This document shows, one piece after another, positions 3,298 through 27,043 of a DNA stretch of 64,000 bases (the stretch's first letter is position 1; every line of letters begins with the position of its first letter). The position numbers and the translations under genes were made by a program. The notes under the pieces were generated by a model. It saw only the letters and a program-made list of their open reading frames with translations, was not told where the DNA came from and ran no database searches. The DNA comes from a virus. Where the stretch lies: IMG/VR virus record IMGVR_UViG_3300014913_000009, positions 1-64,000 of that record. One strand, given 5' to 3'.

Positions 3298-3781
3298 CTT
3301 CGCTCCTTTGCTTAAAGTCAAGTGCCATACGCAGTTTTTGCTCTCCTGTTTGCCCTGCGCTATACTTCATAGACAATCTTACGCTATGATTGTCTTTACC
3401 AATACTTTCATAGTTCCATAATCCAAGATGTCGAATATCCATATTATTAAAATAGTCTGGAGGTGATATTATTCCAGGAATATTCATATTAAATGAAACC
3501 GAACCATCAGATTTTCGCCTACTCGGAACACCATGTATAAATACTTCTCCCGGAGTAGATTTCGTAAGATGTTGTCTTTTTATTTGCAATTTTGCAATTT
3601 CGGCATCTATTTGCTTAATTTCATCTGTTGGTTCTTGTGGTTTATATACTGGAAAAGACTTCATTGATCTCAGTACATGATTCGCGACTTCCTGTATATA
3701 ATCGCAAGTGTCAGGTCTTGGTTGCAACCAAAGTCTTTCTGATTGCATTTCGTCCATTATTTTGAATGCTATATTTGACAT
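3239..3781 (-). CDS. Hypothetical protein overlapping the beta'-like start
   Basis: 180-aa ORF with SD (AAAGGA), in operon with the RNAP genes. Confidence 0.7.
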   Translation of the reverse strand: MSNIAFKIMDEMQSERLWLQPRPDTCDYIQEVANHVLRSMKSFPVYKPQEPTDEIKQIDAEIAKLQIKRQHLTKSTPGEVFIHGVPSRRKSDGSVSFNMNIPGIISPPDYFNNMDIRHLGLWNYESIGKDNHSVRLSMKYSAGQTGEQKLRMALDFKQRSEDEENTKTNREIYPEDGRSY

Positions 3782-3793
3782 AATGTCCTTTCT

Positions 3794-8383: not shown

Positions 8384-8391
8384 TATTAATA

Positions 8392-8462
8392 TTGGCAAAT
8401 CTCATCAGTACCGGAATGCCAATCCGGCAGACCGACGCCGATACCAGCGTCGGTTTCGATTT
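8392..8462 (-). ncRNA. Type II hammerhead ribozyme (HHR-1)
   Basis: AAAUC-GAAA-[stem III with GUAU loop]-GUC cleavage triplet-[stem I UGCCGGA/UCCGGUA, loop UUGGCAU]-CUGAUGA-GAUUU-GCCAA. Complete core plus a loop I / 3'-tail pseudoknot. Confidence 0.93.
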
Positions 8463-8787: not shown

Positions 8788-8794
8788 TTTGAAA

Positions 8795-8863
8795 TTGGCA
8801 TTCTCGTCAGTACCCGGGTGCCAGCCGGATAGACCGACGCCGATACCGGCGCCGGTTTAGAAT
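8795..8863 (-). ncRNA. Type II hammerhead ribozyme variant (HHR-2, G12U)
   Basis: Same fold as HHR-1 with compensated stems and CUGACGA, but UAAA replaces GAAA. Confidence 0.8.
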
Positions 8864-11962: not shown

Positions 11963-12260
11963 AGTAAAATTTCCTCCAAGAAAAAGGTAAGCAAAAGAGC
12001 GGATAATACTAAATAAATCCGCGAATAATTATTTTTAAGACTGAAAGCTACTTTTCATATATATCAAATAAGTAATGTATAATACACCCAAATCGGCAAA
12101 ATATTAATTAAGTGAAGAGGTATGTATGTATATAGAAACAAATATATCAAGACAGATATGAATAAGATAAAAGATAAGCCAAATAGAGATATTTAGAAGC
12201 ATTCAAAGAATACATCTAAAAACCACTCAGAAACCAACAGAAGCAATCAAAGATATAAAT

Positions 12261-12321
12261 ATATAACATAAATTACACCGAGATATAACATGAATTACAC
12301 CGAGATATAACATAAATTACA
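12261..12321. repeat. 22-bp tandem repeat, about 2.8 copies (iteron-like)
   Basis: ATATAACAT(A/G)AATTACACCGAG units. Confidence 0.75.
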
Positions 12322-12987
12322 AAAACCACACTGTTATTCCAGCCGTCTCGTGCCGTCTCGTGCCGTTTAACGCCATTCTAACAGTATTTCGACATATTAC
12401 TAATATCTCTTGATAGCATTCCTATCACGTTCCATATAACTCTTTATATATGCCATATACAGTATGCCATATAGGTATGTTATATGTAATATTGTGTAAT
12501 GTGATAGCCAGCAATATTAGCACATATATTTAATATTTCGCCGAAAAAAGTCATAAGTCCAATTTGTACACCTAAAATGGCTCTTTTTGCAAATGTCCTT
12601 AAAATTCGTAGTAAACCCCTGACGGGGAATACTACTTATGACATATTTTTATTTTTGAAAAGTCATTTTTTTCTCAGGGTTGTACGAAAAAAGTCCATTA
12701 GACACTTATGACTTTTTTTACGTCTTTTTTGCCACTCTAAACTGCCCCTATTTGGCGAATAGAGGCATTCTACGTTGCAAAAATTGCCCAAAATAGGCTA
12801 TTTTTGTAATTTATGATTTATATAGATTATTGAGCACCATACAAACTCTGTCAACTCTACCAAAATCGGCATATTATTATGTGTATTTCTACTACTGATT
12901 GCCAATCATATCACCTCTATAAATATATGTTTTTTCTCACTTTTTCAAATCGGCATATATTTTATTGATTGGATATTTCTCTTTGAT

Positions 12988-13279
12988 GCGCTCGCTTCGC
13001 TCGCGCCCAATAATAATGGTGATTTACCATATATGTTGACATGTAAAGTCCCATCAGACTGCCTCTACACGGCAAATAAATTCTCCTCAAAACACCTTTT
13101 TATGTGATAAATGACACATAAGGCCAAAATGCTCTTTTGGGTAGATATTTCTCTTAAGTGCGCTCGCTTCGCTCGCGCTTATAATGGGAGTATTATTCTT
13201 GATGATTGCGCTCGCTCCGCTCGCGCTGATATATGACAATCAAGTGTTCTTCTTGATGATACGCTCGCTCCGCTCGCGC
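12988..13279. repeat. Four dispersed GCGCTCGCT(T/C)CGCTCGCGC repeats
   Basis: Copies at 12988, 13160, 13208 and 13261 in AT-rich non-coding DNA. Confidence 0.85.
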
Positions 13280-16075: not shown

Positions 16076-17119
16076 CTATTCCTCGTCCTCTTCCTCCTCT
16101 TCTTCCTTTTCTATTTTTACGCCCGACTCCAACAGGAACCGGGCGGCCTCCACAAATCCTTCCTCTATTGCTACTCTCATTTCCCACCCGTAATCTCCAG
16201 AATTGAGGTCTATCCAACCCCCTTCTACGAGGGTCTTTATCATGGGCACACTTCCCAGCGCGTACAGCAGCGCTTGACATGGAAGATCGCCACCTTCCTC
16301 CAACATTAACTGAACCAGACGGCAGTGTCCCGCCCTGATGGCACGGAGGACATCCTCCTCGTCAATTAATGATGCACGAGACCTTGATTCGATCAGGGTC
16401 CGTGAGATGCACTCACATCCCATCCTCACGGATGTGGAGAGGTGCTCTGAAGATGCACGCCCTCCGAACTCAAGAGCGAGATGAATCATAGAAACGTTCC
16501 CACTCTCAAGTGCGTCCTCCATGATGTCTCCCTCATAGTCGGGAGTCCTCTCCAACAGCATCCGTGCTGCGAGGACATTCCCCGATCTTACCTCTCTGTT
16601 CACCTCCATGCCCGAAAGTGGGCATTCAAGTGACTCTAGTATCAACCGGAGGCATTCCACCCCCTGCAGGCTGCCTCCTTGACAGTATCTTATCGCCTGC
16701 GCGAGTGAGCTCTTGTTCTTGCCCGCTCCTCGCTTGAGGAGCAGGCGGACGATCTCAGTATGACCATGGAACGAGGCCCATCTCAAAGGACCCCCCTCGT
16801 CGAAGTGTATACAAGCCCCTGCATCAAGGAGCATGCGAACAGCACCCTCCCTGCCCTCCGTAGAGGCACTAACAAGCGCCTCCCCCAGGGTCTCGTTCGA
16901 AAAACAAGACTCTTTTAAAAGCATCATGAGGATGCTTTCCTTTCCACGCCATGCTGCCGTCAAGAATACCGTCTTGACGGCATCTTTCGACACCCCTCTT
17001 GCGAGGATAGTCTTTACGACAGATTCTCGTCCGCCGTATGAGGCCTTGATAAGGCCTCCTTCCAACACCCTCGTGGGGATGTTGTTTGCCATCAACTCAA
17101 GTGTGAGTCGACGATCCAT
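16076..17119 (-). CDS. Ankyrin-repeat protein (N-terminal domain apparently frameshifted off)
   Basis: Repeats such as PLRWASFHGHTEIVRLLLKRGA; acidic tail. Confidence 0.85.
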   Translation of the reverse strand: MDRRLTLELMANNIPTRVLEGGLIKASYGGRESVVKTILARGVSKDAVKTVFLTAAWRGKESILMMLLKESCFSNETLGEALVSASTEGREGAVRMLLDAGACIHFDEGGPLRWASFHGHTEIVRLLLKRGAGKNKSSLAQAIRYCQGGSLQGVECLRLILESLECPLSGMEVNREVRSGNVLAARMLLERTPDYEGDIMEDALESGNVSMIHLALEFGGRASSEHLSTSVRMGCECISRTLIESRSRASLIDEEDVLRAIRAGHCRLVQLMLEEGGDLPCQALLYALGSVPMIKTLVEGGWIDLNSGDYGWEMRVAIEEGFVEAARFLLESGVKIEKEEEEEEDEE

Positions 17120-17508: not shown

Positions 17509-18312
17509 TTACGCTCCATTCTCAACAAGCAGTTTGACGACTGCTAAATGTCCGTTCCTCCTCGCCCAACGCAACGAGGAACCGTGATTTTCATTCGTAT
17601 TAGCCCCTCCTTTTATTAGTAGTTTCGCAATTTCTGCGTATCCATTTCTCGCAGAAAGATACAATGCACGCCCTTTAAACGCGTTAACATCTGCACCGCT
17701 CTCAAGGAGCAGTTTTACAACTTCAGGGTAATTACCAATCACTGCCCAGCGCAGTGGATCTCCGTCTATAACATCCGCATCCACTCCCGCCTCAAGGAGC
17801 AACCTCACGATTGCAGTGTGTCCGTTTTCAGCGGACGAACACAATGCCCAATCATAATGGGCGTTTATACCCATCTCTATCAGCAATTTCACAATTGCAG
17901 TATGCCCGTATACAGCGGATAAATGTAATATGGAGTCTATATCCACCCCCATCCCTATCAGCAATTTCACAATTGCAGTATGCCCGTTTTTCGCCGACAA
18001 ATGCAACACATGATTATTGTGGGCGTGAACATTCGCGCCATTCTTGAGCAGCAGTTTTACAACCGCTATATTCCCGTGTTCCGCTGCATCTCGCAACGCC
18101 CAATCGTCTCTGACATGAACGTTTGCACCTGCATCAAGACAAGCCTGGGTTATATCGACCCGCCGTGCCATTAGCCAACCCAGCCATCCGTTATTGTCGA
18201 GTTTTTCGAGCAGTTCTGGTACGGTACACCCGTCCGGGAAATGCTTGTCGAACCAGTCAATGCCAGATTCACAGGCTTTGAGTTCTATTAATAAGTCAAT
18301 TGTGATTTTCAT
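17509..18312 (-). CDS. Ankyrin-repeat protein
   Basis: About six or seven canonical repeats (ALxxAAxxGHxxIVKLLLxxGA). Confidence 0.93.
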   Translation of the reverse strand: MKITIDLLIELKACESGIDWFDKHFPDGCTVPELLEKLDNNGWLGWLMARRVDITQACLDAGANVHVRDDWALRDAAEHGNIAVVKLLLKNGANVHAHNNHVLHLSAKNGHTAIVKLLIGMGVDIDSILHLSAVYGHTAIVKLLIEMGINAHYDWALCSSAENGHTAIVRLLLEAGVDADVIDGDPLRWAVIGNYPEVVKLLLESGADVNAFKGRALYLSARNGYAEIAKLLIKGGANTNENHGSSLRWARRNGHLAVVKLLVENGA

Positions 18313-18411: not shown

Positions 18412-18504
18412 AAATACAGACAAGAACAGTTCTTGTCTGTCATACTCTCTATTGGGGTGATTTCGTCCATACGGAGAAATCCCCACATGGTGTCTCTTTA
18501 CATC
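18412..18504. repeat. 93-bp perfect direct repeat, copy 2 (includes the 3' end of the single-chain RNAP gene)
   Basis: Identical to 17416-17508. Confidence 0.95.
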
Positions 18505-21500
18505 CCCACTTGGAGAGTATGTCGGCGACATTTCGTTCGCCAACATTATAATCCCGATTTCTATTCTCGGGATTATCCGTAACGAAGGAGCACCCTTTAT
18601 GGAGTGCATCCATCACTCTCTCCACGGGGAGTGGTGCCCTGTCTTTCCTCTTTCCGTTTACGGAAATAAACAGGACCTTATTCTCCTCCCCATTCCAGTT
18701 GGGGAGATTTTTGACATATCTGCCAGTACTCCCCTTGGAGTCTAGATTTGCCAAAAGGAGATCAGAACGATCCCATTTTGCCTTATCCTTTTCTCCATAT
18801 TTCCCCTGGAAGATTTCCTCCGCAGGGGATCCAAATTCAATCTCATTGGACATTGCATCCAATGAGATTTTGGGAGACCATTCAGGGTTACTCATACGAC
18901 CCCCAATGATCGCCCACACTCCCATCGGAACAATCTGTTCGACGAGAGACCATGGATGAACATTTTCACCCATAGCATAAGGCTTGCCGCTCTTATCGCG
19001 GTTTACCTTAAGAGTTCTATCTTCAAGATAGAACTTCTTAATCCTACCTTTCGTATTGCGCTCGGCGAGACTCATCGAGCGTAATATGCAGATTAGATAG
19101 AACTCAATTGAATGAGGCATATCAATCAAGTACTGTTTGATAGCCTCTATTTGCTGGCTATTATATTTAGAGTCACTTCTAAACATGCTAGCCCAAATAT
19201 CAAATAAGGACATTACCGACATTCCATAGCCGTCAATATCCTTCTCCGAATTCAAACGCCCCTGCATAAGGCGTTCACGTGCCTTACCTCGAACATTCTT
19301 GACGGCTGGGCGTTTAGACCACAACTCTATCAAGAGGCTCGAGACGGCATTATAAAGCCCCACATTATCCTCTGCTCCGAGGGTGGGACTTTTAATGACA
19401 GAGTACATCTGAGCGAGCCTTCCAAAATGAGGCTCCTGGATGTTGCTCCATTTATGACAATTCTCGACTACTTCCTTGTAGCCAAGAATTGTCGAGGTTT
19501 CACCAATCACCCGCTTCTCTGCGAGCGATTGGACTTCGGGGGACGCATCTTTCGATGGGCCCTTTATATATTTATAAAGGGAAGCATCTTCATGCATCCT
19601 CCAAATCGAGGGGCTTCTCTTGCCCCAATTGTCGGGAATTCTATTCCCGAAAGTTCGAGCCAGAATTTTGTCTGGCTCGACCTTGCAACCCAAGAACTGT
19701 TGACATTCGTCTCTAAACAGATCTGGGTTGATAATAACGCCATCCAACTTATGTTTCAATAAGTTGATAGCGACCTGAACCTTCATGGTCAATCCATAAA
19801 GGCTCGAGGCACATGATATGAGATCAAGTCCCATATCATGTGCCTTAGAAAATAGGGATGAGAGTATATTATCATATACTCCAATCCCATTAGTTTGGAC
19901 ATCCATGATCATGTCACGAACGCCCTTCCAACCCCAAGACTCACTCCGCTTGGTGGTCGGAGTGTCAAGCCCATCAGCATAAACATCTTTCGATGCTCTG
20001 ACGGACTTAACAATACTCAGATTCATTGCATGCAACTTAGACCAAGTCGCAGGCAACAAATCAACATGGGACACATTAACTGCATCTCCATCGAAATCTC
20101 CTCGACATAATATCGAGAAGATTTCCGGATTTACACTCATTGCGTTTGAGTGTGAACCCTTAACCTCCCTGGCTACGACGATAGATCCCGCCGTGACCAG
20201 TGGGGAACGTGTCATCATGACGTTCCCCTTGCGAGGTTTCATCCCACCAGGAATGGCAATAATCGTATTGCCACCCCGAAATGGGGGGATACATGGGTCG
20301 GGCATCACATAAGCATAAATGCCACGAACTCTTACATTCGCAGCCTTATGATGCAATGCCTTCCCCATTGCGCTCTCACCATATATGCCCGCGACATGAC
20401 ACTTCATGCCGGGAACATTCATAGCGAAAGCGCCTTTTGTATTGGCATCCACTCCGAATGCCTCATACATGAGCTGGTAATCAGCCCATTTGCCGCCAAT
20501 ATTGACGGCATGAACGCCCCGCGCCAATTTCTCGCACGTGACGTACGTTTTAGCCATCAAATCCTCGACCGAGGCATTATCCGGCATATTGCGGATGATT
20601 TGAGAACTCATTTTTACTGAGTTTCCAACATCCTTAATTTCAGAGATGCATGTAATTGCACCTCTTTTGGCACCACTACCAGTGGACTTTATATTCCACG
20701 GGCTAATAGTCCCAAACTCTGCCGACAATCCCAACCGGGACATCAGCAAAGAAATGAAAGTACTGGAACCACATAGCCCTTTGGCTATGTCAATTCCAGT
20801 TTCTCGAAGTTGTACGGCACGCAGCTGTACAACCTCATCTTTGGGCTCAACATTATATATGTTAAGCCCGTCGAAATATTTATCGCCAAATTCGACAAAC
20901 ACTTTTTCAGTGCTGTCGAACTGAGATAAATATTCTCCTATAGTAACAATGTCACTATAGGCTGGCATTGTCATCCAATCGGACGGCAATGCCTTCTTGA
21001 TGGAACGATTGGCACTATTGTACCATTTGTTCCATCTCCCTTCGGCAATTGTAGACACGATAATTTTTATCGCATCCTCCTTGCCGAAACGAGACAATGG
21101 AAACAAGTCCATTGTCTCGAATTTATAACTTGTCACCTCCCTGCAAGGTGACAACAGGAGCCGCGTATAAATCGCTTCATACACGGCCTTGAAACCCCCA
21201 GGTATGAGGGTTTTAAACTCACCCCGGTTTAGGAGGATGAATTGCTCACCCTTCATATCCGGGATTAATACCGCCACTTTACTGACGGTCCTGAATATGC
21301 TCCCAAGACGACTCTCGAGAGCATCGTCTACACGGGCCCTGACCCATGCAGACATCTTTGCAGGTTCGTCCTGGGGACACCTGTCCCACAGTTCGTCCCG
21401 GACAAGGGCTTTTACACCCTTTATGGAAATAGTAGCAAGTTCCTGACGCTTGCTACCAAGGATTGAAAGGATATGTTCTAAAACACGCCCTTTCACTTCA

Positions 21501-21583
21501 ATCGACCCCACACACGTGAGGTCGATTTTCAATCCCATCGACTTAAATAGAACCTCGAAGGTCCTATTTACTAAATTCTTCAT
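18449..21583 (-). CDS. Single-chain two-barrel RNA polymerase (YonO / cellular RdRP-like)
   Basis: FDG, QLR...AKG...NIK (first barrel), RSP...GDFDGD (R-to-D spacing 37) and IGVYDN, in RdRP/YonO motif order. Confidence 0.82.
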   Translation of the reverse strand: MKNLVNRTFEVLFKSMGLKIDLTCVGSIEVKGRVLEHILSILGSKRQELATISIKGVKALVRDELWDRCPQDEPAKMSAWVRARVDDALESRLGSIFRTVSKVAVLIPDMKGEQFILLNRGEFKTLIPGGFKAVYEAIYTRLLLSPCREVTSYKFETMDLFPLSRFGKEDAIKIIVSTIAEGRWNKWYNSANRSIKKALPSDWMTMPAYSDIVTIGEYLSQFDSTEKVFVEFGDKYFDGLNIYNVEPKDEVVQLRAVQLRETGIDIAKGLCGSSTFISLLMSRLGLSAEFGTISPWNIKSTGSGAKRGAITCISEIKDVGNSVKMSSQIIRNMPDNASVEDLMAKTYVTCEKLARGVHAVNIGGKWADYQLMYEAFGVDANTKGAFAMNVPGMKCHVAGIYGESAMGKALHHKAANVRVRGIYAYVMPDPCIPPFRGGNTIIAIPGGMKPRKGNVMMTRSPLVTAGSIVVAREVKGSHSNAMSVNPEIFSILCRGDFDGDAVNVSHVDLLPATWSKLHAMNLSIVKSVRASKDVYADGLDTPTTKRSESWGWKGVRDMIMDVQTNGIGVYDNILSSLFSKAHDMGLDLISCASSLYGLTMKVQVAINLLKHKLDGVIINPDLFRDECQQFLGCKVEPDKILARTFGNRIPDNWGKRSPSIWRMHEDASLYKYIKGPSKDASPEVQSLAEKRVIGETSTILGYKEVVENCHKWSNIQEPHFGRLAQMYSVIKSPTLGAEDNVGLYNAVSSLLIELWSKRPAVKNVRGKARERLMQGRLNSEKDIDGYGMSVMSLFDIWASMFRSDSKYNSQQIEAIKQYLIDMPHSIEFYLICILRSMSLAERNTKGRIKKFYLEDRTLKVNRDKSGKPYAMGENVHPWSLVEQIVPMGVWAIIGGRMSNPEWSPKISLDAMSNEIEFGSPAEEIFQGKYGEKDKAKWDRSDLLLANLDSKGSTGRYVKNLPNWNGEENKVLFISVNGKRKDRAPLPVERVMDALHKGCSFVTDNPENRNRDYNVGERNVADILSKWGCKETPCGDFSVWTKSPQ

Positions 21584-21695
21584 AATTTCTCCTTTCTTGA
21601 AAAAGATGGCTTATGAATAGCCAGAGGCCAACATAACCCCACACAATAGAAAGACGTTCTTTTCGCGTGGAAAAAAACATTCTTGCGTGGGGAAA

Positions 21696-21753
21696 AAACT
21701 GTTTCATCCCACCTACGGGAATCGTCAGGCACTAAAAGTAAGTGCTACAGTTT
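21696..21753 (-). ncRNA. Type III hammerhead ribozyme (HHR-3)
   Basis: AAACU-GUA cleavage triplet-GCACU(UACUUUU)AGUGC-CUGACGA-U-UCCC(GUAGGU)GGGA-U-GAAACAGUUU. Confidence 0.88.
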
Positions 21754-21818
21754 AGTTAGAGGGAAAGAAAAAATAGAGGAGAGTTTTTACACTCTCCTCT
21801 ATTTCCCATTCGCCTAAT

Positions 21819-22094
21819 TTATGATAAATCGTCTATGGATCCATCGGGGTTCACTCTGTGGCATTCTTCTCCACAGCTCAATATTAGGTGGAGGTTGGCT
21901 TTGTACAGCGATATACTCCAGTGGTAAGAATTATCGTTGGCATTAAGCCAACGATTACTGTAATCAATACCGTACCCGTCATCGCACCCCTCAAACATAT
22001 CTTGATCCGACAATTCAAAATTGTTTTTCAATGTATTCACCTGTGCTTCAGTTACTAATGAAAACAATTTTACTTCTTTCGTTGCATTTGTCAT
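21819..22094 (-). CDS. Hypothetical protein
   Basis: SD AGGAGG; followed by a hairpin at ~21770-21804. Confidence 0.7.
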   Translation of the reverse strand: MTNATKEVKLFSLVTEAQVNTLKNNFELSDQDMFEGCDDGYGIDYSNRWLNANDNSYHWSISLYKANLHLILSCGEECHRVNPDGSIDDLS

Positions 22095-22109
22095 GGATAT
22101 TTCCTCCTA

Positions 22110-22450
22110 TTAAAAAGCTGGTTCCCACCAGGCCTATTTGTTAATAGACTTGTATCTCATGGTTGGGATGGACACTCCCTTAAAATACCAGTAGATACCA
22201 TTGGGTGTAGTTACACTCATCACTCTATGCTCAGTTAACCCCATAGAGTAAGGTATTTAGTTTTTACAGCATTGCCCTTAGGTTACTGCACCAGGTCATT
22301 CTTGTAGGGCTATGTTTCCTGAGATTCGCCCGATCAACTATTTTAAGAGGATTGATCTTCCTCCGCAGGTAATTCTTTGTTTACAATAAGCCCCCACACC
22401 ACGTCAAGGTGATTACCAATCGTGGGAGTAGACCCCATAAGGGGTCCAAC
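22110..22450 (-). ncRNA. Candidate structured leader/ncRNA containing pseudoknot copy E (22332-22364)
   Basis: ORF-free with many hairpins; GGAGG-AA-GAUCAAU-CCUCU-UAAAAUA-GUUGAUC. Confidence 0.5.
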
Positions 22451-26969: not shown

Positions 26970-27043
26970 TGCAAGATAGAGTAGAGGTCACTCGACGGTC
27001 TCATAAGCCGTATACCCTGGTTCGATTCCAGGTCTTGCAACCA
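26970..27043 (+). tRNA. tRNA-Met(CAT), initiator-like
   Basis: Full cloverleaf: TGCAAGA/TCTTGCA acceptor, CTCATAA anticodon loop, TTCGATT T-loop, encoded CCA. Confidence 0.93.

What the first reader, a model, noticed from the sequence alone, without database searches (positions are those of the whole stretch)
21696..21753. Type III hammerhead in the leader of an RNA polymerase gene
Seen: a complete core with GUA cleavage triplet (cut 21746/21745), ~160 nt upstream of the polymerase ATG. The first pair of stem II is an atypical U-U, and the loops are complementary (ACUU/AGGU or UAC/GUA). It is unrelated in topology to HHR-1 and HHR-2, so it was acquired independently. Inference: self-cleavage sets the 5' end and stability of the RNAP mRNA.
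Basis: partly seen in the sequence, partly recalled or inferred. Interest (0 to 1): 0.7.

Follow-up and report, generated by a model that had tools for sequence, protein, structure and literature searches.

The report
Phage hammerhead ribozyme before polymerase gene
A small self-cutting RNA motif of a well-known kind sits between a small gene and a probable RNA polymerase gene of an uncultured sediment phage, where it most likely cuts one long message into two hairpin-capped pieces; it is a good but ordinary example.

Summary
The motif is real. On the minus strand, 21753-21696 holds every conserved hammerhead core position: CUGACGA, GAAA, A15.1-U16.1 and a GUA triplet cut at 21746|21745. Its stems are 5 bp, 4-5 bp (after a U10.1-U11.1 mispair) and 7 bp.

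- **Chance:** it is the only type III match in the 89,970-nt phage record. None of 300 composition-matched random genomes gave one as good.
- **Against:** Rfam's type III model does not score it. No homologous locus allows a covariation test. No RNA data exist.
- **The U-U mispair:** it is a documented natural variant (Perreault 2011).
- **Ribozymes nearby:** the phage also has one canonical type II hammerhead and one that reads U at G12. Distant relatives of the polymerase gene lie near a type II hammerhead and a twister-sister. None has a ribozyme directly upstream of the polymerase.
- **Upstream hairpin:** a 17-bp hairpin precedes the motif. In my sample of viral contigs, 8 of 14 type III hammerheads have such upstream structure, against 6 of 63 controls.

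Most likely this is an ordinary phage intergenic hammerhead. It marks a cut between a small gene and the probable YonO-like polymerase gene, and is not a polymerase-specific device. It is a new member of a known kind. This scan has noted hairpin-plus-type-III units on other DNA before.

The parts
21696..21753 (-). Whole type III hammerhead motif (HHR-3). Predicted cut between 21746 (A17) and 21745 (G1.1).
   Evidence: Sequence read. Only type III descriptor hit in the record. The MFE and centroid of the 58-nt, 71-nt and 256-nt folds give the three-way junction.
21747..21753 (-). Stem III 5' strand (16.7-16.1). It pairs with 21696-21702 to give 7 bp, including A15.1-U16.1.
   Evidence: Pair probabilities are 0.5-0.76 in native context. 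Duplex energy is -6.1 kcal/mol.
21729..21745 (-). Stem I hairpin: 5 bp with a 7-nt loop. It would be the extreme 5' end of the downstream cleavage product.
   Evidence: Pair probabilities are 0.81-0.92.
21722..21728 (-). Core C3-A9 (CUGACGA).
   Evidence: It matches the consensus quoted in Perreault 2011, section 13.
21706..21721 (-). Stem II hairpin: a U10.1-U11.1 mispair, then 4 bp (5 with a G-U pair), closed by a 6-nt or 4-nt loop (UAGG).
   Evidence: Pair probabilities are 0.68-0.82. The U-U variant is documented in Perreault 2011, section 8.
21702..21705 (-). Core G12 A13 A14 plus A15.1 (GAAA).
21768..21807 (-). 17-bp hairpin (-23.7 kcal/mol) followed by a pyrimidine run. It looks like a terminator and ends 14 nt before the hammerhead. 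Proposed 3' cap of the upstream cleavage product.
   Evidence: The terminator scan did not list it, because its U run can be absorbed into the stem.
21637..21692 (-). Long imperfect hairpin (-25.7 kcal/mol) directly 3' of the hammerhead, in the polymerase leader.
21599..21623 (-). Second, weak terminator-like hairpin (5 bp, 7-nt loop) with a U run, just before the ribosome-binding site.
21589..21594 (-). Shine-Dalgarno AAGGAG, 5 nt before the ATG at 21583. The wider word AAGAAAGGA recurs 7 times on the minus strand.
18449..21583 (-). 1044-aa ORF, a probable single-chain two-barrel (YonO/RdRP-like) RNA polymerase with an extra C-terminal domain of about 120 aa.
   Evidence: GDFDGD is present. 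R459, P461 and G495-D500 are invariant in 4 of 4 relatives. The nearest atlas clusters carry PF05183 in tailed phages (0.89, 183 features). A weak PDB profile hit (E about 0.7) to a phage beta' subunit falls over the same motif. Pfam, PHROGs and PDB phmmer found nothing.
21819..22094 (-). Upstream 91-aa ORF of unknown function. Its message would be separated from the polymerase message by the cut.
   Evidence: No family hit.

Best explanation
This is a genuine type III hammerhead self-cleaving ribozyme of the kind phages carry between genes. It has the known natural U10.1-U11.1 variant of stem II.

Proposed mechanism:
1. Transcripts run from the small upstream gene through the 17-bp hairpin into the polymerase leader.
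2. The hammerhead folds in these transcripts and cuts after A21746.
3. The upstream piece ends in a 2',3'-cyclic phosphate, 21 nt (21767-21747) behind the strong hairpin.
4. The downstream piece starts with a 5'-OH at G21745, which is the first paired base of the stem I hairpin. Stem II, a 23-bp hairpin, the ribosome-binding site and the polymerase ORF follow.
5. One message thus becomes two with structured ends, without a host nuclease, and their lifetimes are uncoupled.

Shown here: the motif, its rarity by chance, its predicted fold in context, and the hairpin-plus-type-III layout in other viral contigs.

Inferred: transcription through the hairpin, cleavage itself, and any effect on stability.
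For: - **Core and stems:** every conserved core position is present, with three stems.
- **Rarity:** it is the only type III hit in the record, and 0 of 300 random genomes had one as good.
- **Location:** the motif is intergenic and on the coding strand of its module.
- **Fold:** the hammerhead fold is the MFE and the centroid in the 256-nt context (z -6.6; 0 of 200 shuffles fold as well). Stem pair probabilities are 0.5-0.92 in the 161, 256 and 401-nt contexts.
- **Other hammerheads in the record:** a type II hammerhead scores at Rfam's gathering score (37.4 bits) and a second scores 32.2 bits.
- **Ribozymes near relatives:** contigs with the nearest polymerase homolog on record hold a twister-sister (40.9 bits, cut-off 34) and a type II hammerhead (35.3 bits) on the same strand.
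- **Literature (Perreault 2011, sections 6, 8 and 13 read):** stem II can start with U10.1-U11.1, and U-U supports more cleavage than any other mispair. Hammerheads of types I, II and III cluster between prophage genes.
- **Independent U-U examples:** two intergenic, sense-strand motifs in viral contigs have a well-paired stem II behind U-U. L008 is a complete type I. L005 has stem II and the UAGG loop, which were not forced by that search. By contrast, 0 of 31 pattern hits in prokaryote genomes reach 5 bp.
- **Upstream hairpin is typical:** the 60 nt upstream fold at <= -15 kcal/mol in 8 of 14 type III hammerheads, against 9 of 55 type I and 6 of 63 controls (Fisher 2.6e-4 and 3.6e-3). Here the value is -25.1.
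- **Downstream product:** the predicted 3' product is strongly structured from its first base (z -4.2).
Against: - Rfam's Hammerhead_3 model gives no match at E <= 10, either in a 451-nt search or among 17 scored candidates in the whole record.
- There is no homologous locus, so there is no covariation test. The closest protein relative of the polymerase has 24-26% identity. A second metagenome holds only identical pieces.
- The motif alone does not fold better than shuffles: z -1.16 for 71 nt (28 of 200 shuffles fold as well) and z -1.65 for 58 nt (13 of 200).
- Perreault 2011's own filter would first reject a 10.1-11.1 mispair. The pair is the most conserved after 15.1-16.1, so activity is probably reduced.
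- The preceding hairpin plus U run may be an efficient terminator. In that case few transcripts would contain the motif.
- No promoter was located.
- The loop-loop pairing that would help folding is not above chance.
- No polymerase-homolog locus has a ribozyme in this position.
- A motif this good is expected about 6.6 times by chance in a scan of 250,000 windows. The case therefore rests on context.
Confidence: 0.55

Rival explanations
1. One reading: a polymerase-specific leader device. The ribozyme exists to set the 5' end, stability or timing of the polymerase mRNA. It may act as a slow or conditional switch because of the U-U pair.
For: - The cut lies 162 nt before the ATG, and the leader is unusually structured (z -6.6).
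- The leader has a second terminator-like hairpin before the ribosome-binding site.
- Precedent: the HF1/HF2 halovirus hammerhead lies 13 nt before an early helicase gene, and the transcript's 5' end was mapped within 3 nt of the cut. The same paper suggests that slower phage variants might be regulated (passages of Perreault 2011).
Against: - No ribozyme lies directly upstream of the polymerase homologs in L001 or L002/L003. In L002 the gene overlaps the preceding ORF.
- U-U hammerhead-like motifs elsewhere precede unrelated genes, such as the terminase large subunit in L008.
- The hairpin-plus-type-III layout is generic.
Confidence: 0.15
2. A decaying or very slow hammerhead relic. It is derived from a real ribozyme but no longer cleaves at a useful rate.
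For: - It has a U-U at the most conserved stem pair.
- It gets no Rfam score.
- There is no significant tertiary loop contact.
- The neighbouring type II copy at 8793-8863 already reads U in place of G12. Ribozyme decay may therefore occur in this genome.
Against: - All 11 fixed core positions and H17 are intact.
- All three stems are uninterrupted.
- U-U is reported to support more cleavage activity than any other mispair.
Confidence: 0.2
3. A chance match to the hammerhead consensus inside a structured leader that has some other role.
For: - About 6.6 chance motifs of this quality are expected over 250,000 windows.
- No conservation can be shown.
- Pattern hits in prokaryote genomes such as L024 and L030 show that look-alikes do arise inside genes.
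Against: - The expectation is 3.7e-5 per genome, and 0 of 300 simulations matched.
- The motif is intergenic and on the sense strand. About 5% of the record is intergenic.
- The phage carries other hammerheads.
- The upstream hairpin is typical of type III units.
Confidence: 0.03
4. The stretch is coding. A 50-aa GTG-initiated ORF (21732-21580) ends in a TGA that overlaps the polymerase ATG, as in translational coupling.
For: The ORF exists and its stop overlaps the ATG.
Against: - The GTG lies inside stem I, with no Shine-Dalgarno sequence before it.
- The polymerase has its own consensus AAGGAG.
- The region folds far better than shuffles.
- I did not search for homologs of the 50-aa product.
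Confidence: 0.02

Closest known systems
Type III hammerhead ribozyme (Rfam RF00008, clan CL00010)
   Same: Same core, same order of parts (stem III open, stems I and II capped), and a GUA cleavage triplet. Stem and loop sizes lie in the range of the 14 type III examples I sampled in viral contigs.
   Different: The Rfam model does not score it at E <= 10. It has U10.1-U11.1 where G-C is usual, and N7 is C. The sampled phage examples mostly have GUC and stems of 7/4/5 bp.
Clustered hammerheads of phages and prophages, including natural U10.1-U11.1 variants (Perreault et al. 2011, PMC3088659; sections 6, 8 and 13 and passages read)
   Same: It is intergenic in a phage and shares a genome with other hammerheads of another type. 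It has the U-U start of stem II. The proposed role is cutting long phage transcripts into gene-length mRNAs.
   Different: I could not see their figures or supplementary data. I therefore cannot say whether any of their U-U examples is type III or phage-borne. Here the three ribozymes are not adjacent: about 12.8 kb separate this one from the type II pair.
HHphage of haloviruses HF1/HF2 (as described in Perreault 2011; passages read)
   Same: It is a hammerhead in the 5' leader of an early gene of nucleic-acid metabolism. There the mapped transcript 5' end lies within 3 nt of the cut.
   Different: That one is a core-variant class linked to high salt or Mg. It lies 13 nt from the start codon, not 162, and belongs to an archaeal virus.
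RNase III processing sites between phage T7 early genes (recalled from general knowledge, no call)
   Same: It works alike: a cut between cistrons leaves a hairpin at the 3' end of the upstream message.
   Different: That cut is made by a host protein enzyme on a double-stranded site. Here the RNA would cut itself and leave 5'-OH and cyclic-phosphate ends.

Membership tests
Hammerhead ribozyme | Core C3 U4 G5 A6 N7 G8 A9 | tested here: met
   CUGACGA at 21728-21722. Consensus as quoted from Perreault 2011, section 13.
Hammerhead ribozyme | Core G12 A13 A14 | tested here: met
   GAA at 21705-21703.
Hammerhead ribozyme | A15.1-U16.1 pair and H17 (not G) at the cleavage site | tested here: met
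   A21702 pairs with U21747, and A21746 is H17.
Hammerhead ribozyme | Three helices around the core, with no mispair next to the core (N10.1-N11.1, N1.1-N2.1) | tested here: not met
   Stems I (5 bp) and III (7 bp) are closed by G-C and A-U, but 10.1-11.1 is U-U. Perreault 2011 rejected such hits at first. The paper also reports natural hammerheads that start stem II with U-U, and says U-U supports more cleavage than any other mispair.
Hammerhead ribozyme type III (RF00008) | Covariance-model score at or above the gathering score (48.5 bits) | tested here: not met
   No match at E <= 10. No Rfam family matched the complete type I U-U motif of L008 at E <= 10 either.
Hammerhead ribozyme type III (RF00008) | Topology: 5' and 3' ends in stem III, stems I and II capped by loops | tested here: met
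Hammerhead ribozyme | Conservation with compensatory changes in homologs | tested here: inconclusive
   No homologous locus was found. Only two motif-level relatives came from pattern search, and they have other topologies.
Hammerhead ribozyme | Tertiary contact between stems I and II (loop-loop or pseudoknot) | tested here: inconclusive
   A 4-bp loop complementarity exists but is matched by 66% of shuffled loops.
Hammerhead ribozyme | Site-specific self-cleavage giving 2',3'-cyclic phosphate and 5'-OH | not testable with these tools
   No RNA run holds the stretch. This needs a bench assay.
Two-barrel single-chain RNA polymerase (YonO / PF05183-like), for the downstream ORF | Metal-binding DxDGD loop with an upstream R-x-P, and the double-psi beta-barrel fold | tested here: inconclusive
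   The motifs are present and invariant in 4 of 4 relatives. There is an atlas lead to PF05183 clusters and a weak PDB profile hit at E about 0.7. There is no Pfam hit.

The most novel reading that the evidence does not exclude
The U-U-weakened hammerhead, the hairpin before it and the two hairpins after it could form a dedicated timing device in a phage with three RNA polymerase systems. In this reading, cleavage is slow or conditional (dependent on Mg2+, a protein or read-through). It decides how much stable, 5'-OH, hairpin-capped mRNA for the single-chain polymerase is made from early transcripts. A ribozyme would then gate the hand-over from one polymerase to the next.
Probability: 0.08. 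Interest if true: 0.6.

Novelty: new member of a known kind. Interest (0 to 1): 0.3.

Why it matters
What bacterial and phage hammerheads are for is still open. The 2019 review passage I read says that more work is needed to define their purpose. This locus offers a compact test case: a complete type III motif with the natural U-U variant, a strong hairpin on one side and a structured leader of an identifiable gene on the other. The sample of viral contigs made here also suggests that type III units usually come with an upstream hairpin. That fits a role as a host-independent way to make two stably ended messages. The phage is uncultured and an orphan, so only in vitro or heterologous tests are possible now. 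The finding does not change what is known about the class.

Tried and rejected
**Expression data**
- No RNA holder is listed for the stretch.
- Two DNA runs were laid. One is the probable source. The other holds only identical short pieces that do not cover 21691-22236, so it gives no variants.

**Relatives of the locus**
- The single-protein scan of viral contigs found none.
- The word-index protein search found only the protein itself.
- blastn against 50,697 phage records found no match.
- The full HMMER search listed 147 proteins. Three share the polymerase core, one is the protein itself, and the other 143 match only the C-terminal ~120-160 residues (within 884-1044).

**Pattern hits rejected**
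- L006 has no GAAA and looks coding. L007 has no stem II or III.
- L009/L011 (identical), L010 and L012 have 1-2 bp in stem II.
- L024 and L030 look like type III but lie antisense inside a conserved 310-aa ORF, and their folds are no better than shuffles.
- L005 is kept only as a stem II/core relative. Its stems I and III reach 3 bp at best.

**Other structural ideas**
- An alternative pairing of the pyrimidine spacer 21771-21757 with the 3' half of the ribozyme wins in an 82-nt window. It is matched by 16.8% of shuffled spacers and has at most 0.02 pair probability in native context, so I dropped it.
- Loop-loop pairing is not significant.

**Promoter search**
- No sigma-70-like site lies on the minus strand between 22067 and 21300.
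- The repeated TTTTTCC-CACGC word is not enriched: 9 matches against 5.9 expected.
- The k-mer recurrence scan found only the ribosome-binding word.

**Identity of the polymerase**
- hhalign of the 4-member profile against the phage's own beta'-like ORF aligned the R-x-P to DFDGD stretch, but at only 2.6% probability.
- A per-member Pfam scan found nothing relevant.
- The C-terminal domain has no Pfam family.

**Closed material**
They may list U-U or type III phage examples that bear on novelty.

Full report
**What is there**

Read on the minus strand, 21753-21696 spells a complete type III hammerhead:
- a 7-bp stem III (21753-21747 with 21702-21696), whose innermost pair is A15.1-U16.1
- A17 at 21746, followed by the predicted cut before G21745
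- a 5-bp stem I with a 7-nt loop (21745-21729)
- the core CUGACGA (21728-21722)
- a stem II that opens with U21721 opposite U21706 and continues with 4 Watson-Crick pairs plus an optional G-U pair around a UAGG or GUAGGU loop
- GAAA (21705-21702)

The cut lies 162 nt before the ATG (21583) of a 1044-aa ORF.

**Is it more than chance?**

- A descriptor of my own found this as the only type III hit on both strands of the whole 89,970-nt record. It required the fixed core, H17, U16.1 and stems of at least 4/3/4 bp, and tolerated a first mispair in stem II.
- In 300 first-order Markov genomes of the same size, none had a hit with stems as long as observed. A lenient 3/3/3 version gave 0.14 hits per genome.
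- A composition-based estimate is 3.7e-5 per genome. That still means about 6.6 such motifs by chance in a scan of 250,000 windows, so context has to carry part of the weight.
- The context is favourable. About 5% of the record is intergenic, and the motif lies there, on the strand of all genes of its module.
- The same record holds a type II hammerhead at Rfam's gathering score (8390-8461, 37.4 bits) and a second at 32.2 bits (8793-8863).

**Folding**

- Alone, the motif folds into the three-way junction, but not better than shuffles. The z-score is -1.16 for 71 nt and -1.65 for 58 nt.
- In its native 256-nt setting the junction is kept in both the MFE and the centroid. That region is very structured (z -6.6; 0 of 200 shuffles fold as well).
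- Pair probabilities of the three stems are 0.5-0.92 in the 161, 256 and 401-nt contexts.
- An alternative pairing of the pyrimidine spacer with the 3' half of the ribozyme wins only in an artificial 82-nt window and is not significant.

**Results against the reading**

- Rfam's Hammerhead_3 model does not report the motif at E <= 10. This holds in a 451-nt search and among 17 scored candidates in the whole record.
- No relative of the phage is on record.
  - The polymerase-like ORF found only itself in the word-index search.
  - It found nothing in 50,697 phage records.
  - The full HMMER search found three core relatives at 22-26% identity.
- A second sediment metagenome holds only identical fragments. 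Covariation therefore cannot be tested, and no RNA data exist.
- The hairpin in front of the motif has a U run and may terminate transcription.
- I found no promoter.

**The U-U pair**

Perreault et al. [quoted passage not shown] They add that U-U had been shown to support more cleavage than any other mispair. Their curation rejected mispairs next to the core unless the gene context was typical, such as a prophage.

I looked for other cases with pattern scans.
- A pattern that fixed the core, U-U and this stem II found one viral contig, L005. The motif there is intergenic and on the sense strand. It has a 6-bp stem II and the same UAGG loop, which the pattern did not force. Its stems I and III are poor.
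- A looser pattern that let stem II vary gave 6 viral hits (5 distinct). L005 and L008 have 5 bp or more behind U-U.
- L008 is a complete type I hammerhead whose MFE is the hammerhead fold. It is intergenic and on the sense strand, about 345 nt before a terminase large-subunit gene. No Rfam family matches it at E <= 10 either.
- The same pattern on prokaryote genomes gave 31 hits, none with 5 bp. The two that looked like type III (L024, L030) lie antisense in a conserved ORF and were rejected.
- The record of L005 carries two more sub-threshold hammerhead cores just after stop codons, at 26 and 23 bits.

The missing Rfam score is therefore weak evidence, and U-U hammerheads do occur in phage intergenic regions.

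**What it belongs to**

The motif starts 65 nt after the stop of a 91-aa ORF and 14 nt after a 17-bp hairpin of -23.7 kcal/mol (21807-21768).

Earlier notes of this scan described type III hammerheads that follow hairpins behind genes in other genomes. I tested that idea on fresh data.
- Among 142 core candidates, my descriptor found 72 distinct complete hammerheads: 14 type III and 58 type I.
- The 60 nt upstream fold with a median of -15.8 kcal/mol for type III (n = 14). The median is -9.5 for type I (n = 55 with enough flank) and -9.4 for controls taken 300 nt further upstream (n = 63).
- The fraction at <= -15 kcal/mol is 8 of 14, 9 of 55 and 6 of 63. Fisher tests give 2.6e-4 and 3.6e-3.
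- Several of the type III examples have a perfect hairpin that abuts the ribozyme.
- Here the value is -25.1, and only two of the 14 are stronger.

Caveats: the sample is small and defined by a canonical G-C pattern, and two examples come from one locus.

The layout makes mechanistic sense. After a type III cut, the upstream RNA keeps only one strand of stem III, so a separate hairpin is needed to cap its 3' end. In the two type II copies of this phage, the 10-bp stem III hairpin itself stays on the upstream product. The downstream product here begins with the stem I hairpin at its first base and is strongly structured (z -4.2).

**The downstream gene**

The ORF has GDFDGD, and an R-x-P motif lies 34 residues before it. 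Both are invariant in the 4-member alignment.
- Pfam, PHROGs and PDB phmmer find nothing.
- A PDB profile search gives only E about 0.7 to a phage beta' subunit, over exactly this stretch.
- The protein atlas places it next to clusters of tailed-phage proteins, most of which carry PF05183 (score 0.89, 183 shared features).

I call it a probable YonO-like single-chain polymerase.

The loci with homologs do not support a polymerase-specific ribozyme. In L002/L003 the homolog overlaps the preceding ORF. On the same strand, the ribozymes found are a type II hammerhead 2.7 kb upstream and a twister-sister 2.1 kb downstream. L001 has none. L004 lacks the upstream sequence.

**Comparison and verdict**

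Phage and prophage hammerheads of all three types, clustered between genes, have been known since 2011. Their suggested role is cutting polycistronic transcripts into messages of different stability, and this remains unproven. The HF1/HF2 case gives a precedent for a hammerhead that defines the 5' end of an early transcript.

This locus is a new member of that kind. It has the known U-U variant and is placed before an unusual gene. I put 0.55 on an active ribozyme that separates the two messages, 0.2 on a slow relic, 0.15 on a polymerase-specific device, and little on chance or coding.

Noticed in passing
window 8793-8863 (-): The second type II hammerhead (32.2 bits) reads UAAAC where the first copy and the consensus read GAAAC. 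That places U at G12 of the core. My relaxed descriptor also counts it as one core mismatch. It may be inactive.
   Followed up: partly
L002 8774-8852 (+) and 966-1039 (+); L003 966-1039 (+): Metagenome contigs with a 972-aa homolog of the polymerase-like ORF carry two ribozymes on the same strand. They bracket a block of about 7.7 kb that contains the homolog. One is a twister-sister above Rfam's cut-off (40.9 bits against 34). The other is a type II hammerhead at 35.3 bits.
   Followed up: partly
window 18449-18830 (-), residues about 925-1040 of the 1044-aa ORF: The C-terminal domain of about 120 aa matches 143 other cluster representatives. They range from stand-alone proteins of about 130 aa to giants of 2000-5000 aa. 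The domain has no Pfam family. In one hit (P0006) it follows DUF4326 and a NADAR-DarT1 domain.
   Followed up: partly
window 21599-21623 (-) and 21637-21692 (-): The polymerase leader holds a 23-bp imperfect hairpin. It also holds a second, weak terminator-like hairpin with a U run just before the ribosome-binding site. This suggests possible attenuation.
   Followed up: no
window 11963-13086 and 3322-3793: By a crude ORF call, two long stretches on the minus-strand module have no ORF of 50 aa or more. They are 1124 nt and 472 nt long, and the second lies upstream of the beta'-like gene. No Rfam family matched there at E <= 1.
   Followed up: no
L045 1501-1540 and L044 1501-1544 (record G001, the contig of L005): Two short hammerhead-like cores (CUGAUGA or CUGAAGA, a paired stem II, then GAAA) lie directly after stop codons. 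They score 23 and 26 bits to RF00008 and have no obvious stem I hairpin. They lie about 2.5 kb and 1.3 kb upstream of the U-U motif of L005.
   Followed up: partly
window 16076-17119 (-) and 17509-18312 (-): Two ankyrin-repeat proteins are encoded directly downstream of the polymerase-like ORF (Pfam Ank_2, E 1.7e-19 and 1.1e-47).
   Followed up: no
window 26970-27040 (+): A tRNA gene (60.9 bits) with a CAU anticodon, as read from the alignment. It lies at the start of the plus-strand module.
   Followed up: no
L047-L164 (viral contigs): In this sample, type III hammerheads are preceded by strong hairpins far more often than type I hammerheads or control windows (8 of 14, 9 of 55 and 6 of 63). 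Several loci hold two to four hammerhead cores.
   Followed up: partly
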